Source: a virus (lineage: Duplodnaviria; Caudoviricetes). From it: a stretch of DNA of 64,000 nucleotides. Below, piece by piece: positions 6,951 to 28,540 of the stretch. The first letter of the stretch is position 1, and each line of letters starts with the position of its first letter. A model generated the notes under the pieces. That model was given only the letters and a program-made list of their open reading frames with translations. It was not told where the DNA came from and did not search any database. The translations under genes were made by a program, and so were the position numbers. The stretch is from IMG/VR virus record IMGVR_UViG_3300031992_000070, positions 1-64,000 of that record; one strand, given 5' to 3'.

Positions 6951-7889
6951 TTATTCCTTGTATTTCCATATATAATTACACAACCTCACTTTCTTACCGT
7001 TGCAACAATTATATATGCGGCTATAAGGGATGGATGTCATTTTACTTGCTTCATTTACACTTTTATAAGTATTTAAATACTTGCCATCCAAAGAATATTG
7101 TTCGACAGGTTTCGCATGGTCTTTTTCTCTTTTTAGCCAATAAAAATCCAGAACCCAATCTCTATCTTTGGAAAACCTATATACTTTTCTGTCATATTTC
7201 ATGAAGTCTTTTAGCGTTTCGTATTTTAACGCCACAGACTTACAATCTTCATAGGATAAACGTTTTCTTGTGTTAAGATGCCTGCCTTCAAGCCAATCAA
7301 AATGTTTTAAAAAACCGTGTCTGACGGAAGCGTTGTACGCTTTATGGCTATTGCTTTTAAAATCTTTAACCGTCTTGTACTTTTGCGCTTCAATATAACA
7401 TTTTTTATAATCCCATTTTTCGGAATTATAAGTACCTATGGTATTAGTTTTTTCTCCTGTCGGTGCTACGTTTAACAAGTTCCACCCTTCTTTTTCATAC
7501 TTTATGCAATAATAATTTTCTTTTTCAACACCTTCGTCTATTGTCTTAAACCTTTCAAGAATGGTCATCGGTGGAATTTCGATGCCGTGCTTATGTGCAA
7601 ACCTAAAAACAGCAGAATCGTCATTTAATCTATGTTGTGAATCTCTTAATTTTAGGTATAAAGTCCTTCCTACATATATACTTTTTTGTTCAACAAAGAA
7701 ATAGGCATATACGTTGTCGCAATATTTTTCGTTATCTTTTATTCTATCATAAATGGAATTGATTTTGTCTTGTGTTTGTTTATCGTTTATTTGCGGGGGT
7801 TCTTGTCTAATATCCCCATTTATTAAAAGAAAGATAGAATCAATAATTGTTTGTCCTTCGTCTAAATTGCTTAATCGTTTTTCAATCAT
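6951..7889 (-). CDS. GIY-YIG homing endonuclease with C-terminal NUMOD1
   Basis: YAYFF..SIYVGRT..R..QH core; C-terminal KPVEQYSLDG..YKSVNEASK..IWKY. Confidence 0.8.
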   Translation of the reverse strand: MIEKRLSNLDEGQTIIDSIFLLINGDIRQEPPQINDKQTQDKINSIYDRIKDNEKYCDNVYAYFFVEQKSIYVGRTLYLKLRDSQHRLNDDSAVFRFAHKHGIEIPPMTILERFKTIDEGVEKENYYCIKYEKEGWNLLNVAPTGEKTNTIGTYNSEKWDYKKCYIEAQKYKTVKDFKSNSHKAYNASVRHGFLKHFDWLEGRHLNTRKRLSYEDCKSVALKYETLKDFMKYDRKVYRFSKDRDWVLDFYWLKREKDHAKPVEQYSLDGKYLNTYKSVNEASKMTSIPYSRIYNCCNGKKVRLCNYIWKYKE

Positions 7890-7995
7890 AATATACCGAA
7901 ATTTTCATTAGCCGAAAAATTGCAAAGCGGGCATGGCTTTCGGCATACCTTTTCGGACGGTTAATTACTCCTTCCTATCCCACTTTGCAAAGATA
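7890..7995 (-). promoter_or_regulatory. Promoter (TATCTTTG, 7988-7995) plus structured leader
   Basis: Three-helix leader sharing GGATAG..GAWAAG..AAAGCC with 46241-46331. Confidence 0.6.
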
Positions 7996-21062: not shown

Positions 21063-21136
21063 TGGTCTTGGGTGGAATCGAACCACCGATTAACGCCTTT
21101 CGGTAAGCGTTGCTTCATCCAACGAAGTTCAAGACC
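21063..21136 (-). ncRNA. tRNA-like RNA with a 10-nt anticodon loop
   Basis: Acceptor GGTCTTG/CAAGACC, D arm CTTC/GAAG, T arm GGTGG-TTCGATT-CCACC; loop TTACCGAAAG. Confidence 0.7.
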
Positions 21137-21299
21137 AAGTTGCCCCACCGCTGTAGGGCTTAGTTGAATTTTTAAATAATTGTTTAACTTTTAACCATAA
21201 CAATGATACACCCTCACGGGCTTATATACGATGCAAAGTTACAAATAAACTTTGAATATTTCAAAATCCTATAACATAGTTTAAGTTAAAAAACCAAAA

Positions 21300-26600: not shown

Positions 26601-27220
26601 TTTTTCACCTTGCTTTTCAAGCCAAGCAACAGAATCTGTTAAAAGAAATATAGTCTTACTGTCAAGCACATTATTTAGCCTATAATATTCTAAAAAATCA
26701 ATAAGTTCTTTCCTTATCCTCTCATCCTCGCTCTCTGGAACAAAGTCTGCGCATATTCCACGTGCAACTTCAACTGTAATTTTTCCACTATTAACCATCT
26801 CTTGTAGTTTGGCTATAGTGTCTTTATGTAATTTCTTGTAGTCCATAATCACAACAAATTTAATTCATGTAATTTCTCAATCATAGTCACGCAAGCATCA
26901 ACAATGTTGTCTGCTTTAGTATGTAAATCACTTATGTGTGGATATGTAATATAGTTGTCATCAAGTGCTATTATTGGTTTACTGCCTTGAATTTCTGGTA
27001 AAATACCAAGCAATGCTGCAAGACTCCAACATCTAATATCGTAGTTAAAATCTTCTTTGCCATCTTTGAACAATGGTGTAGGACAAATAGATTCTACATC
27101 TGGTGGAAAGTAATCATTATCAATCTGACAAAAATAATACATATCTGCACTCTCTATTGGCAGTATCTCTGCCAACTTGCGGCTCTGTTCTAAATCAGTG
27201 TAACTTTTAATTGTTGCCAT
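23632..27220 (-). CDS. Run of small hypothetical ORFs (23632-23874, 24014-24241, 24234-24455, 24460-25098, 25102-25293, 25387-25695, 25829-26044, 26049-26852, 26849-27220)
   Basis: Codirectional, short spacers; modular motifs (EDERIRKELI, EEPVS, WKPSDEQM). Confidence 0.6.
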
Positions 27221-27253
27221 ACTTTATCCTTTCTTTTAATTGTTACTTATTAG

Positions 27254-27379
27254 TGGAGAAAGCAGACTCGAACTGCTATCTTCTGATGGTATGTTATGGG
27301 ATGCCTCCCAATGGCGCAGATTTTTTATGTACAGTCACTGCTATGACCACCAGATGTTCTGCCTTTGAACTATTTCCCC
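27254..27379 (-). ncRNA. tRNA-like RNA with a 55-nt insert in place of the anticodon loop
   Basis: GGGGAAA/TTTCTCC acceptor, TA-GTTC-AAAGGCA-GAAC D arm, TTCGAGT T loop, 9-bp extended anticodon stem. Confidence 0.7.
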
Positions 27380-27458
27380 AAACGCCCCACCGCTGTGAGG
27401 CTAACTGTTATAAAATTCATAAATATGAAAGAATACCCATCGCGGGCTTATATCAAAA

Positions 27459-27716
27459 GTGGCACATTCTGCCAAGGTGTGTTGTTACACCAAAGACGCC
27501 TACGCATTGCGTGAAGGTCATTAACCTTGCTCATTCCTATTTTCCCACAGCTACATCAGAAATGTGCACCATAATTGTATTTTATTCCGTTATCAGGCTT
27601 TATAATCATACAACCGCAAGATACTATTTTCCGTTTTGCCACATGTGGTAGTTCGCGTCACTCTTTAAAAGATGGCTACCTCCAAGCCTACTTTCCTTGT
27701 CTGTAAAACGTGCCAC
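27459..27716 (-). ncRNA. Structured RNA resembling 23S rRNA H42-H44 (GTPase-associated centre) with a 169-nt insertion
   Basis: Own promoter TAAATTTG at 27739-27746; closed by GTGGCAC/GTGCCAC; GTAGGCTTGGAGGTAGCCATCTTTTAAAGAGTG ... GTGTAACAACACACCTTG. Confidence 0.75.
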
Positions 27717-27790
27717 TACATTATCAAAGAACACTTTGCAAATTTACAACTTTAATTTTGAATATTACAAGTTCGTTAGAATAGATTAAC

Positions 27791-28540
27791 TTAAATATCT
27801 TTAATCTTATTTGTTCCGAAAGTTCCGTTGTTAATCCATCTGAAATACTCGCTGTTCATTTCATCCTGCCATTCCTTTTGGTCGTCATACATCATATCAT
27901 CAGATACATAAGAGAAAAATCTCAAGAGAATTTCATTTACCATATATCCGCGCAGGATGCCGCCTCCATCCATAAACACGTCGTATGGAGCAATCCCTTT
28001 GTCTTCGTTGTTCTTTGATGACTCGTCGCCAACTACGTCAAAGTGCATCCAGCGCAACACAATGCTTTCAACCTTTCGTGCAAACTCTATATTTTCCAAT
28101 CCTAAAGGCTTTAGATACCTTTCCGTGTATCTGTTGAATGCGTGCGGAACGATGTCAATAACCATACCAAGACCTCTATTGCTTCCGTTTACCTTGCTTT
28201 TCATCGCAAACGGGTCGATTGCAAGAATACCCTTTCCAGTATTGCCGTCAATCTTGTTGCTTCCGTTTTTTCTTTTCTTTTCTATTTCGTATGTGGTATA
28301 ACAGAAACTCCAGAACTGTCCTTTCTTTACAGCTTTCTTTGACTTACAGATAATAAGCATCAGCCATTTGTTGTTCCTGTCATCATTAAACCGTATTCTC
28401 TGTACATAAGGGAATCTTGTACCGCGTCCAAACTTGTCCCATATCTCACTTTTAAAATCATCGTAGACGCTTATTGCAGTATTGTAGATTCGGAATGCTT
28501 CAAATGCTTTTTCCTCATCGTTCATCGTAGGTAATACCAT
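27791..28540 (-). CDS. Hypothetical protein
   Basis: Likely start MVLPTMNDEE at 28540. Confidence 0.6.
   Translation of the reverse strand: MVLPTMNDEEKAFEAFRIYNTAISVYDDFKSEIWDKFGRGTRFPYVQRIRFNDDRNNKWLMLIICKSKKAVKKGQFWSFCYTTYEIEKKRKNGSNKIDGNTGKGILAIDPFAMKSKVNGSNRGLGMVIDIVPHAFNRYTERYLKPLGLENIEFARKVESIVLRWMHFDVVGDESSKNNEDKGIAPYDVFMDGGGILRGYMVNEILLRFFSYVSDDMMYDDQKEWQDEMNSEYFRWINNGTFGTNKIKDI

What the first reader, a model, noticed from the sequence alone, without database searches (positions are those of the whole stretch)
27254..27379. tRNA scaffold displaying a 55-nt structured domain instead of an anticodon loop
The D arm and T loop are canonical; acceptor plus T stem total 11 bp rather than 12. 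The anticodon stem extends to 9 bp (TCTGGTGGT/ACCATCAGA) and encloses 55 nt containing a TGGGA-GGCA-TCCCA GNRA hairpin and GCAG/CTGC. It is too short for a group I intron. It resembles a natural tRNA-scaffold RNA that might bind synthetases, EF-Tu or anti-tRNA defence nucleases without decoding.
Basis: partly seen in the sequence, partly recalled or inferred. Interest (0 to 1): 0.75.

Follow-up and report, generated by a model that had tools for sequence, protein, structure and literature searches.

The report
Anticodon-less tRNA-shaped phage RNA
A sheep-rumen phage encodes a 126-base RNA with a complete tRNA body in which a conserved folded 55-base module replaces the codon-reading loop, so it is most likely a tRNA look-alike that does not decode, one of the unexplained "split tRNA" genes of gut phages.

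Summary
On the minus strand, 27379..27254 scores 41.8 bits with the Rfam tRNA model. The 7-nt anticodon loop is replaced by a helix extended to 9 bp and a 55-nt insert with two hairpins.

Three natural variants (one goat-gut contig, two JGI metagenome contigs) keep every helix:
- 97.7% of cells are paired, and four pairs carry compensatory changes.
- A 25-nt core of the insert is identical where the tRNA frame differs at 10 of 53 positions.
- A loop hexamer switches between two perfect palindromes, UGUACA and GGUACC, independently of backbone type. This suggests a self-pairing (kissing) loop.

Excising the insert cannot restore a normal anticodon loop, because G33 is kept in all four copies. 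There is no bulge-helix-bulge motif, no group I core, and no RNA ligase or splicing endonuclease among the phage proteins that match Pfam. The mini reading frame is broken in three of four copies.

The acceptor end keeps the full alanine identity set (G3·U70, A73).

My best reading (0.55) is a non-decoding tRNA-shaped RNA, matured like a tRNA and carrying a conserved cargo. The main rival (0.2) is an intron-bearing tRNA-Asp.

The class is known only as the "enigmatic introns" of Lak megaphage tRNAs, and this scan has met it on other DNA. The function is untested.

The parts
27254..27379 (-). Whole tRNA-shaped RNA, 126 nt (RNA position p = 27380 minus coordinate)
   Evidence: Rfam RF00005 at 41.8 bits. 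Fold. Conserved in 3 variants.
27373..27379 (-). Acceptor 5' strand GGGGAAA. It pairs with 27255-27261 (UUUCUCC), and the discriminator A is at 27254. G3·U70 is present.
   Evidence: Pairs 1-4 and A73 are identical to E. coli alaV. Pair 6:67 covaries AU to GC.
27356..27370 (-). D arm GUUC-AAAGGCA-GAAC, with G18 G19 and A14 present
   Evidence: Pair 11:24 covaries UA to CG.
27346..27354 (-). 5' strand of the 9-bp extended anticodon helix. It pairs with 27282-27290.
   Evidence: Eight of 9 pairs are invariant. Pair 30:94 is G·U, A-U or A·C.
27291..27345 (-). 55-nt insert (cargo): J1 CAUA, hairpin P1, J2, hairpin P2, J3 UAACAU
27316..27341 (-). Hairpin P1, GCAG/CUGC, with an 18-nt loop
   Evidence: Pair 41:62 covaries AU to GC and pair 39:64 is GC or GU.
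27328..27333 (-). Self-complementary loop hexamer UGUACA, which is GGUACC in two variants
   Evidence: The two alleles are discordant with the two backbone types.
27291..27315 (-). J2-P2-J3 core, GCCAU-UGGGA-GGCA-UCCCA-UAACAU (P2 spans 27297-27310 and has a GNRA loop)
   Evidence: 0 of 25 differences between window and L055, against 10 of 53 in the tRNA frame.
27262..27276 (-). T arm GCAG-UUCGAGU-CUGC (4 bp, canonical T loop)
27384..27402 (-). Leader hairpin AGCCUCAC-AGCG-GUGGGGC, which ends 4 nt before the tRNA 5' end
   Evidence: The same hairpin lies 3-5 nt before ordinary tRNAs in 7 other phage contigs and before L055.
27435..27453 (-). Upstream GC hairpin (AUAAGCCCGCGAUGGGU), shared by the cassettes and terminator-like
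27233..27253 (-). Shared 3' trailer CUAAUAAGUAACAAUUAAAAG, with no encoded CCA
   Evidence: Shared with L029 and L040, and in part with L054.
21063..21136 (-). The phage's only other tRNA-like gene, behind the same leader hairpin (21142-21160). Its anticodon loop has 10 nt, UUACCGAAAG.

Best explanation
This is a gene for a stable, non-decoding tRNA-shaped RNA. A near-complete tRNA frame (acceptor, D arm, T arm) serves as a scaffold, and the anticodon end carries a conserved three-way-junction cargo.

Inferred pathway:
1. The RNA is transcribed with its conserved leader hairpin.
2. Host RNase P cuts it at the 5' end and RNase Z cuts after A73.
3. It receives CCA.
4. Because of the G1-G4/G3·U70/A73 set, it may be alanylated.

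The 9-bp helix and the cargo keep it from reading codons. The cargo offers a strictly conserved GNRA hairpin with its junctions, and a hairpin loop with a 6-nt palindrome. The palindrome probably mediates loop-loop pairing of two copies.

Shown: the fold, its conservation and covariation, the lack of a recoverable anticodon loop, and the alanine identity nucleotides.

Inferred: the processing, the charging, the dimerisation, and a role as a mimic, decoy or adaptor for a tRNA-handling factor.
For: - tRNA frame: 41.8 bits, with canonical U8, A14, G18G19 and T loop.
- Structure: four sequences keep 97.7% of cells paired. Both-side changes occur in the acceptor, the D stem, P1 and the loop palindrome. 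Slid controls give 0-1 such pairs.
- Core: the J2-P2-J3 core has 0 of 25 differences where the tRNA frame has 10 of 53.
- Palindrome: UGUACA (window, L054) and GGUACC (goat variant, L055) cut across the two backbone types.
- Anticodon loop: G33 is kept in all four copies, and no excision gives Y32-U33-NNN-R37.
- Frame geometry: the 11-layer acceptor/T stack is kept, and 7:66 is A·G in L055 and L054.
- Splicing machinery: no RtcB, Rnl, EndA or PNK Pfam hit among 78 ORFs of 98 aa or more. No ribozyme or intron family at E<=10.
- Coding need: the phage uses the standard code, and its only other tRNA-like gene has a 10-nt loop.
- Related phages behind the same leader hairpins carry further anticodon-less tRNA shapes: L007 404-483, L009, L008 2899-3037.
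- Alanine identity: acceptor pairs 1-4 plus A73 equal E. coli tRNA-Ala and are kept while pairs 6 and 7 change.
- An RNA-library contig covers the 5' frame-insert boundary unspliced, but DNA in that library is not excluded.
Against: - Only four sequences from two backbone lineages are available, so the covariation statistics are thin.
- One variant was rebuilt from a single contig of depth 4.9.
- The 5' side of the loop reads UGGUCAU/C. That is a tRNA-Asp loop apart from position 33, as expected if a tRNA-Asp gene acquired an insert.
- Lak phage inserts sit in otherwise intact tRNAs.
- No RNA ends, charging, dimer or partner has been shown.
- The palindrome could be read at the DNA level.
- An unknown splicing route cannot be excluded from sequence.
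Confidence: 0.55

Rival explanations
1. It is an intron-bearing tRNA-Asp(GUC). The 55-56-nt insert would be one of the small 'enigmatic' phage tRNA introns, removed after position 37/38 by an unidentified host or phage activity or by self-cleavage and ligation, to give a working tRNA.
For: The loop's 5' part, U-G-GUC-A-U/C, has Y32 and A37 in place. Lak megaphages of Prevotella carry conserved inserts in tRNAs, and alleles without the insert exist there (PMC6784885). L029 and L040 have an insert next to a perfect CUUUAAU loop. Strong conservation of the insert would also suit an RNA needed for its own removal.
Against: G33 is kept in all four copies, where U33 is nearly universal. Positions 32-35 are locked in the 9-bp helix. 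There is no bulge-helix-bulge motif, since the 3' cut would lie inside the helix. At 55 nt the insert is far below group I size, and no Rfam intron or ribozyme hit appears. No ligase or endonuclease was found in the phage. The discriminator is A where E. coli tRNA-Asp has G (from memory, not checked here). Acceptor plus T is 11 layers, with an A·G at 7:66 in two copies. No insert-free allele was found in four collection scans.
Confidence: 0.2
2. It is a degenerate tRNA gene kept only as a processing signal ('tRNA punctuation'). RNase P and RNase Z would cut the polycistronic transcript here, separating the upstream RNA from the downstream mRNAs, and the insert would have no function of its own.
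For: The element lies between an upstream ncRNA (or an ORF, in L055) and downstream ORFs, 33 nt before an AUG. The shared leader and trailer form a movable cassette found with different neighbours. Several neighbouring phages have anticodon-less tRNA shapes at such sites.
Against: The insert is better conserved than the frame (0 of 25 against 10 of 53). P1 and the loop palindrome show compensatory changes. A pure cutting signal would not constrain them.
Confidence: 0.13
3. It is a miniature tmRNA-like rescue RNA. An alanine-charged tRNA-like domain would have an insert that supplies a short tag frame (GCA ... UAA, 15 codons).
For: G3·U70 and A73 as in tmRNA and tRNA-Ala. In the window copy, a frame starting with GCA at RNA position 39 ends at UAA 84-86.
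Against: A 2-nt length difference in the P1 loop shifts that frame in three of four copies and removes the in-frame stop. There is a full D stem and an anticodon helix, unlike a tmRNA tRNA-like domain. There are no pseudoknots. ARAGORN and the Rfam tmRNA models do not hit it.
Confidence: 0.02

Closest known systems
'Enigmatic' introns in tRNA genes of Lak megaphages of Prevotella (Devoto et al. 2019, Nat Microbiol, PMC6784885)
   Same: These are gut or rumen phage tRNA genes interrupted at the anticodon loop by short, highly conserved inserts of no known intron class. One Lak insert holds a nested tRNA, as do L002-L004 here.
   Different: Lak inserts were read as introns in otherwise intact tRNAs, and alleles without the insert exist. 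Here, excision leaves G33 and an 11-layer acceptor/T helix, and no insert-free allele was found. This phage is 81 kb and uses the standard code. Removal has not been shown in either case.
Engineered tRNA scaffold for recombinant RNA (Ponchon and Dardel; see PMC3753655)
   Same: The design is the same. A cargo RNA replaces the anticodon loop on a lengthened anticodon stem. The tRNA frame is thought to give processing and stability in the cell (the role of the frame is from my own knowledge of the method).
   Different: That scaffold is man-made, so the likeness is one of function only. Here the arrangement is natural, conserved, and carries its own conserved cargo.
Phage T4 species 1 RNA (rnaC), a small stable RNA in the T4 tRNA cluster
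   Same: It is a stable RNA of unknown function encoded next to phage tRNA genes, with a T arm (CCGGG-UUCGAAU-CCCGG) and paired ends (function unknown per PMC9697503).
   Different: rnaC does not score as a tRNA (best hit tRNA-Sec, 17.5 bits, E 0.74). I saw no sequence likeness to the element here, but did not align them.
tRNA-Ala and the tmRNA acceptor end
   Same: G1-C72, G2-C71, G3·U70, G4-C69 and A73 are identical to E. coli alaV.
   Different: There is no UGC/GGC anticodon loop, no tmRNA architecture and no conserved tag frame.
Kissing-loop dimerisation hairpins (for example the HIV-1 DIS, whose subtypes carry GCGCGC or GUGCAC; from my own knowledge)
   Same: A 6-nt palindrome sits in a hairpin loop with A-rich flanks, and there are two alleles that differ by a symmetric double change.
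   Different: The loop is 18-20 nt rather than 9. Dimerisation is not shown. There is no relation by descent.

Membership tests
Canonical decoding tRNA (Rfam RF00005) | Cloverleaf scoring above the family's gathering score | tested here: met
   41.8 bits against 29, but only with permissive filters and a 63-nt insertion state. Missed at default settings.
Canonical decoding tRNA (Rfam RF00005) | 7-nt anticodon loop with U33 and a purine at 37 | tested here: not met
   The loop is replaced by 4 extra base pairs plus 55 nt. Any excision leaves G33 or A33, and G33 is kept in all 4 copies.
Canonical decoding tRNA (Rfam RF00005) | 12-bp acceptor plus T-stem stack | tested here: not met
   7+4 = 11 layers in all copies. 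7:66 is A·G in L055 and L054.
Canonical decoding tRNA (Rfam RF00005) | Conserved tertiary nucleotides (U8, A14, G18G19, T loop UUCRANY) | tested here: met
   Read from the sequence and the Infernal alignment.
Archaeal/eukaryal-type tRNA intron | Bulge-helix-bulge motif (two 3-nt bulges 4 bp apart) at the splice sites | tested here: not met
   The 9-bp helix is continuous, and a 3' site before position 38/39 would lie inside it. No tRNA_int_endo hit in the phage.
Group I intron in a tRNA anticodon loop | A catalytic core (P3-P8), about 200 nt or more | tested here: not met
   The insert is 55 nt. No Rfam intron or ribozyme match at E<=10 in 26800-28200.
Lak-type 'enigmatic' phage tRNA inserts | A short, highly conserved insert at the anticodon loop of a gut-phage tRNA gene, unclassifiable in Rfam | tested here: met
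   Description in PMC6784885.
Lak-type 'enigmatic' phage tRNA inserts | Precise removal restores an intact tRNA, and insert-free alleles exist | tested here: not met
   G33 and the 11-layer stack remain after removal. No insert-free allele in the viral or metagenome scans. Near relatives may be hidden from these scans.
tmRNA | Alanine identity (G3·U70) on the acceptor | tested here: met
tmRNA | A conserved tag reading frame with resume codon and stop, pseudoknots, and a tRNA-like domain without a D stem | tested here: not met
   The frame is shifted by a 2-nt indel in 3 of 4 copies. A 4-bp D stem is present. There are no tmRNA hits.
Alanine-accepting RNA (AlaRS substrate) | G3·U70 with A73 and G2-C71 on an accessible acceptor helix | tested here: met
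   Identical to E. coli alaV at pairs 1-4 and position 73, and kept in the diverged copy L055. ARAGORN's alternative register would put the G·U at 4:69.
Alanine-accepting RNA (AlaRS substrate) | Actual aminoacylation | not testable with these tools
   Needs a charging assay.
Kissing-loop dimerisation hairpin | A self-complementary hexamer in an unpaired hairpin loop, kept by symmetric changes | tested here: met
   UGUACA or GGUACC, 2+2 copies, discordant with backbone type. The loop is unpaired in the fold.
Kissing-loop dimerisation hairpin | Dimer formation | not testable with these tools
   Only a duplex energy estimate: -4.8 and -8.2 kcal/mol for the two hexamers.

The most novel reading that the evidence does not exclude
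Rumen phages make an alanine-accepting, anticodon-less tRNA body whose anticodon end carries a sequence-invariant recognition hairpin and a kissing loop that comes in two specificities. Two tRNA bodies would then pair tail to tail. This RNA would work outside decoding, as a decoy or adaptor for a host factor that handles tRNA (a synthetase, EF-Tu, a tRNA-targeting defence nuclease or transferase). That would make the 'enigmatic tRNA introns' of gut phages, at least in part, a class of natural tRNA-scaffold RNAs rather than introns.
Probability: 0.3. Interest if true: 0.8.

Novelty: new variant of a known kind. Interest (0 to 1): 0.6.

Why it matters
Insert-bearing tRNA genes of gut and rumen phages have been on record since 2019 as 'enigmatic introns', and no mechanism has been proposed in the papers I could search. 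This copy is small and has natural variants, so it gives concrete handles for experiments:
- a frame that cannot yield a normal anticodon loop;
- an invariant 25-nt core;
- a two-allele palindromic loop;
- a conserved alanine identity set.

If such RNAs are not spliced, phages use the tRNA shape as a carrier for other RNA functions. That is the same trick biotechnologists invented for expressing RNAs. Part of what annotation pipelines call phage tRNAs, pseudo-tRNAs or intron-bearing tRNAs would then need re-reading. If they are spliced, a new bacterial or phage tRNA splicing route awaits discovery. Either outcome is testable with a Northern blot and tRNA sequencing.

Tried and rejected
Searches for relatives that found nothing useful:
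- Public phage records, distant blastn: no match.
- Exact-pattern scans of viral contigs for the 5' half, the P2 core and the 3' half: no match.
- A first metagenome scan with the 3' half: no match.
- A degenerate P1-loop pattern: two chance hits inside coding DNA.
- Look-up of the downstream protein by identity: not on record.
- A covariance model of the cargo: no further copy in 357 kb of related loci, and L007's insert, which shares UGUACAUA, is not detected. Sharing that 8-mer is within chance.
- Relatives cannot be drawn for a virus record.
- The leader hairpin in bacterial genomes: 8 hits in unrelated high-GC organisms, about the chance number, so no host clue.

Functional ideas tested and dropped:
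- Antisense targets of the insert in the phage genome: three 11-mers against 1.7 expected, so chance.
- rRNA mimicry by the cargo: local alignment to E. coli 16S and 23S scores below the shuffle mean, whereas the upstream RNA does align to 23S 1045-1088. blastn against E. coli genomes gave nothing.
- TGTACA as a DNA operator: 32 sites against 26 expected, spread through genes.
- Theta (HDV-like) ribozyme at the tRNA 3' end: the trailer is AT-rich, there is no Rfam hit, and theta ribozymes start within 5 nt of the tRNA.
- Riboswitch or small ribozyme in the insert: none at E<=10.
- Plus-strand ORFs 27211-27651 and 27240-27368: no Pfam or PHROG family.
- Neighbouring proteins: no informative family.

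RNA-library contigs:
- No contig joins across the insert, and cover of 27240-27410 is thin (depth about 2). This neither shows nor excludes splicing.
- One contig joins 27407 back to 27207, at a 3-5-nt shared AGTTA. I read it as a cassette rearrangement or an artefact, not as evidence of a circle.

Full report
**What is there.**
Read on the minus strand, 27379..27254 is a 126-nt tRNA-shaped sequence. The Rfam tRNA model aligns it end to end at 41.8 bits against a gathering score of 29. E is 4e-7 in a 1.4-kb search and 1.9e-5 over the window. The model places 63 nt where the 7-nt anticodon loop belongs.

Default Rfam filters, plain ARAGORN and the genome-wide first look all miss it.

The minimum-free-energy fold contains:
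- the acceptor GGGGAAA/UUUCUCC;
- the D arm GUUC-AAAGGCA-GAAC;
- a 9-bp helix UCUGGUGGU/ACCAUCAGA;
- two hairpins inside that helix, GCAG-18 nt-CUGC (P1) and UGGGA-GGCA-UCCCA (P2);
- the T arm GCAG-UUCGAGU-CUGC.

The z-score is -2.4 for the whole RNA and -2.45 for the arm alone. Acceptor plus T stem makes 11 layers. ARAGORN reaches 12 only by starting one base earlier and leaving a 3-nt connector.

**Setting.**
The window is part of an 80,911-bp virus record that CheckV rates as complete. The phage comes from sheep gut. It uses the standard genetic code: stop-to-stop frames of 100 aa or more cover 86% under table 11.

The phage has only one other tRNA-like gene, at 21136..21063. That gene has a good cloverleaf but a 10-nt loop, UUACCGAAAG.

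Both genes sit in the same kind of cassette:
- a small GC hairpin (AAGCCCGYGA..GGGU);
- an AT-rich spacer;
- a hairpin AGCCYYAC-AGCG-GUGGGGC that ends 4-5 nt before the tRNA 5' end;
- a trailer ACUAAU....

The same leader hairpin precedes ordinary tRNAs (Gln, Arg and others) in seven other IMG/VR phage contigs. It is therefore a general pre-tRNA leader of this phage group. In bacterial genomes it occurs only at the chance level.

**Relatives and covariation.**
Near relatives are hidden from most collections, and the first scans found nothing. Two sources did yield variants.

- Goat-gut contig. Laying public runs on the stretch gave one goat-gut DNA contig that covers 27240-27387 at about 95% identity, while its flanks are unlike the window. 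I rebuilt this variant from the tool's tables.
- JGI metagenome contigs. A second metagenome scan with the P2 core found two contigs.
  - L055:1208-1335 is a complete copy behind the same two leader hairpins. An ORF lies upstream of it instead of the ribosomal-RNA mimic.
  - L054:1218-1326 is cut at its 5' end and has a different downstream gene.

On the four-sequence alignment A3, the structure I wrote down has 97.7% of cells paired. Four pairs are changed on both sides:
- acceptor 6:67, AU to GC;
- D stem 11:24, UA to CG;
- P1 41:62, AU to GC;
- the loop pair 47:52, UA to GC.

Versions with the partner slid by 1-3 columns give 0-1 such pairs and 39-53% pairing.

Between the window and L055:
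- the tRNA frame differs at 10 of 53 positions;
- the 9-bp helix differs at 2 of 18;
- P1 differs at 6 of 26, plus a 2-nt indel;
- the 25 nt of J2-P2-J3 (GCCAU UGGGA GGCA UCCCA UAACAU) do not differ at all.

The insert is therefore under at least as much constraint as the tRNA frame. Part of it is constrained in sequence, not only in pairing.

**The palindrome.**
The P1 loop holds UGUACA (27333..27328). The goat variant and L055 have GGUACC, while the window and L054 have UGUACA. The backbones group differently: the window groups with the goat variant, and L055 groups with L054. So the symmetric double change happened, or was exchanged, at least twice.

A 2-nt loop rules out a hairpin within one molecule. 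The simplest reading is pairing between two copies of the RNA, a kissing loop with two specificities. Duplex estimates are -4.8 and -8.2 kcal/mol.

A DNA-level site is less likely. TGTACA is neither enriched nor clustered in the genome: 32 sites against 26 expected.

**Is the insert an intron?**
- The 5' side of the loop reads U-G-G-U-C-A-U (C in L054). That is a tRNA-Asp loop except at position 33.
- G33 is kept in all four copies and pairs with the 3' end of the insert.
- No choice of cut sites yields Y32-U33-NNN-R37.
- The helix has no bulge-helix-bulge motif.
- 55 nt is far too short for a group I core.
- No Rfam intron, ribozyme or riboswitch matches at E<=10.
- None of 78 phage ORFs of 98 aa or more hits an RNA ligase, RtcB, splicing endonuclease or polynucleotide kinase family. 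Many of these proteins have no family at all.
- No insert-free allele was found.
- An RNA-library contig covers 27290-27407 with the frame-insert boundary intact. The library may hold DNA and the depth is about 2, so this is weak evidence.

Splicing by an unknown route is therefore not excluded. Even so, its product would be an abnormal tRNA.

**Is it a tiny tmRNA?**
The window copy has a frame GCA...UAA (positions 39-86). The 2-nt length difference in the P1 loop shifts that frame in the other three copies. There is also a full D stem and no tmRNA hit. I reject this reading.

**Alanine identity.**
Pairs G1-C72, G2-C71, G3·U70 and G4-C69, together with A73, are the same as in E. coli tRNA-Ala alaV. 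They are kept in L055, where pairs 6 and 7 have changed.

From established knowledge, AlaRS recognises G3·U70 on the acceptor helix without regard to the anticodon. The RNA may therefore be alanylated. This is a prediction, not a result. ARAGORN's alternative register would move the G·U to 4:69.

**The wider class.**
Behind the same leader hairpins, related phages carry other tRNA shapes with abnormal anticodon arms:
- L029 and L040: a 30-nt insert next to a perfect CUUUAAU loop, in a cassette with the same trailer, upstream of a homologue of the window's downstream gene.
- L005: 48 nt in place of the loop.
- L002-L004: a tRNA-Leu-like frame holding a nested tRNA-like sequence.
- L007 404-483 and L009: a long arm capped by a tetraloop, sharing AGGAGCGGUWUCGCCUGAC.
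- L008 2899-3037: 139 nt with a long anticodon arm.

Devoto et al. (2019) reported 'enigmatic', highly conserved introns in tRNAs of Lak megaphages of Prevotella, one of which holds a tRNA. I found no later paper on a mechanism.

Earlier notes of this scan describe the same design in at least 16 other genomes. They point to T4 species 1 RNA. I checked that RNA: it has a T arm but does not score as a tRNA.

**Most likely mechanism.**
I commit to a non-decoding tRNA-shaped RNA (0.55). In this reading the tRNA frame is the handle that host RNase P, RNase Z and the CCA enzyme use, and perhaps AlaRS too. The lengthened anticodon helix displays a cargo with an invariant GNRA hairpin and junction, which is a likely recognition surface. 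The cargo also carries a palindromic loop that probably pairs two molecules.

This is the natural counterpart of the engineered tRNA scaffold. What the RNA acts on is unknown. A decoy or adaptor for a tRNA-handling host factor is the most economical guess.

Rivals:
- an intron-bearing tRNA-Asp (0.2);
- a degenerate tRNA kept only as a cutting signal (0.13), which is weakened by the conservation of the insert;
- a mini-tmRNA (0.02).

**Verdict.**
This is a real, conserved RNA gene, and a new variant of a kind that is on record but unexplained. Its interest lies in the concrete predictions it offers for the open question of whether these phage 'tRNA introns' are introns at all.

Noticed in passing
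window 27459-27716 (-): The RNA just upstream of the element resembles the 23S rRNA GTPase-associated centre. Local alignment to E. coli 23S 1045-1088 scores 38 against a shuffle maximum of 33. rRNA contigs of very high depth in two sheep metatranscriptomes match 27659-27693. Exact RNA-library contigs span 27462-27702. L055 shows that the tRNA-shaped RNA also occurs without it.
   Followed up: partly
window 27384-27402 and 21142-21160 (-); L002-L008, L055: The hairpin AGCCYYAC-AGCG-GUGGGGC, with compensatory variants, ends 3-5 nt before the 5' end of many phage tRNAs and tRNA-like genes. It may be a pre-tRNA leader signal of unknown role. It is not found above chance in bacterial genomes.
   Followed up: partly
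window 21063-21136 (-): The second tRNA-like gene has a 10-nt loop, UUACCGAAAG, which can also fold as CC-GAAA-GG. The complement of the loop, UUUCGGUA, lies 4 nt before the AUG of the ORF 6951-7889 (-), at 7901..7894. The genome-wide count (3 other sites against about 2.5 expected) is at the chance level.
   Followed up: partly
L002 3865-4049, L003 7995-8179, L004 3849-4033: A tRNA-Leu-like frame encloses about 130 nt that contain a nested tRNA-like sequence with its own 10-nt loop, AGUUAAUCGA. The stem of that loop covaries between L002 and L004. L005 has the same frame with a different 48-nt filling.
   Followed up: no
L007 404-483; L009 2524-2605; L008 2899-3037: Further anticodon-less tRNA shapes in related phages. 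Two of them share the arm sequence AGGAGCGGU(A/U)UCGCCUGAC, capped by a tetraloop. The third is 139 nt with a long anticodon arm and an extra arm.
   Followed up: no
window 27207-27407: One 151-nt contig of an RNA library (depth 2.1) joins 27407 back to 27207, at a short shared AGTTA. It could be a cassette rearrangement in a related strain, a 201-nt circle, or an artefact.
   Followed up: no
whole genome (G000): There is strong avoidance of some palindromic hexamers: TGATCA 0 against 27.8 expected, AGTACT 1 against 16.1, TCTAGA 1 against 14.5, CGTACG 0 against 10.9, GGTACC 0 against 7.7. This looks like restriction-site avoidance.
   Followed up: no
L006 7160-7338: A match to the permuted-tmRNA family at 45 bits, just under the gathering score of 47, lies in a tRNA-rich stretch of a 103-kb phage contig.
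   Followed up: no
window 27734-27770 and 21230-21264 (-): The shared sequence TTG.AATATTCAAA...TGTAA(A/C)TTTGCA fits the Bacteroidota -7 promoter motif TAnnTTTG (from my own knowledge). It suggests a Bacteroidota host and a promoter for each cassette.
   Followed up: no
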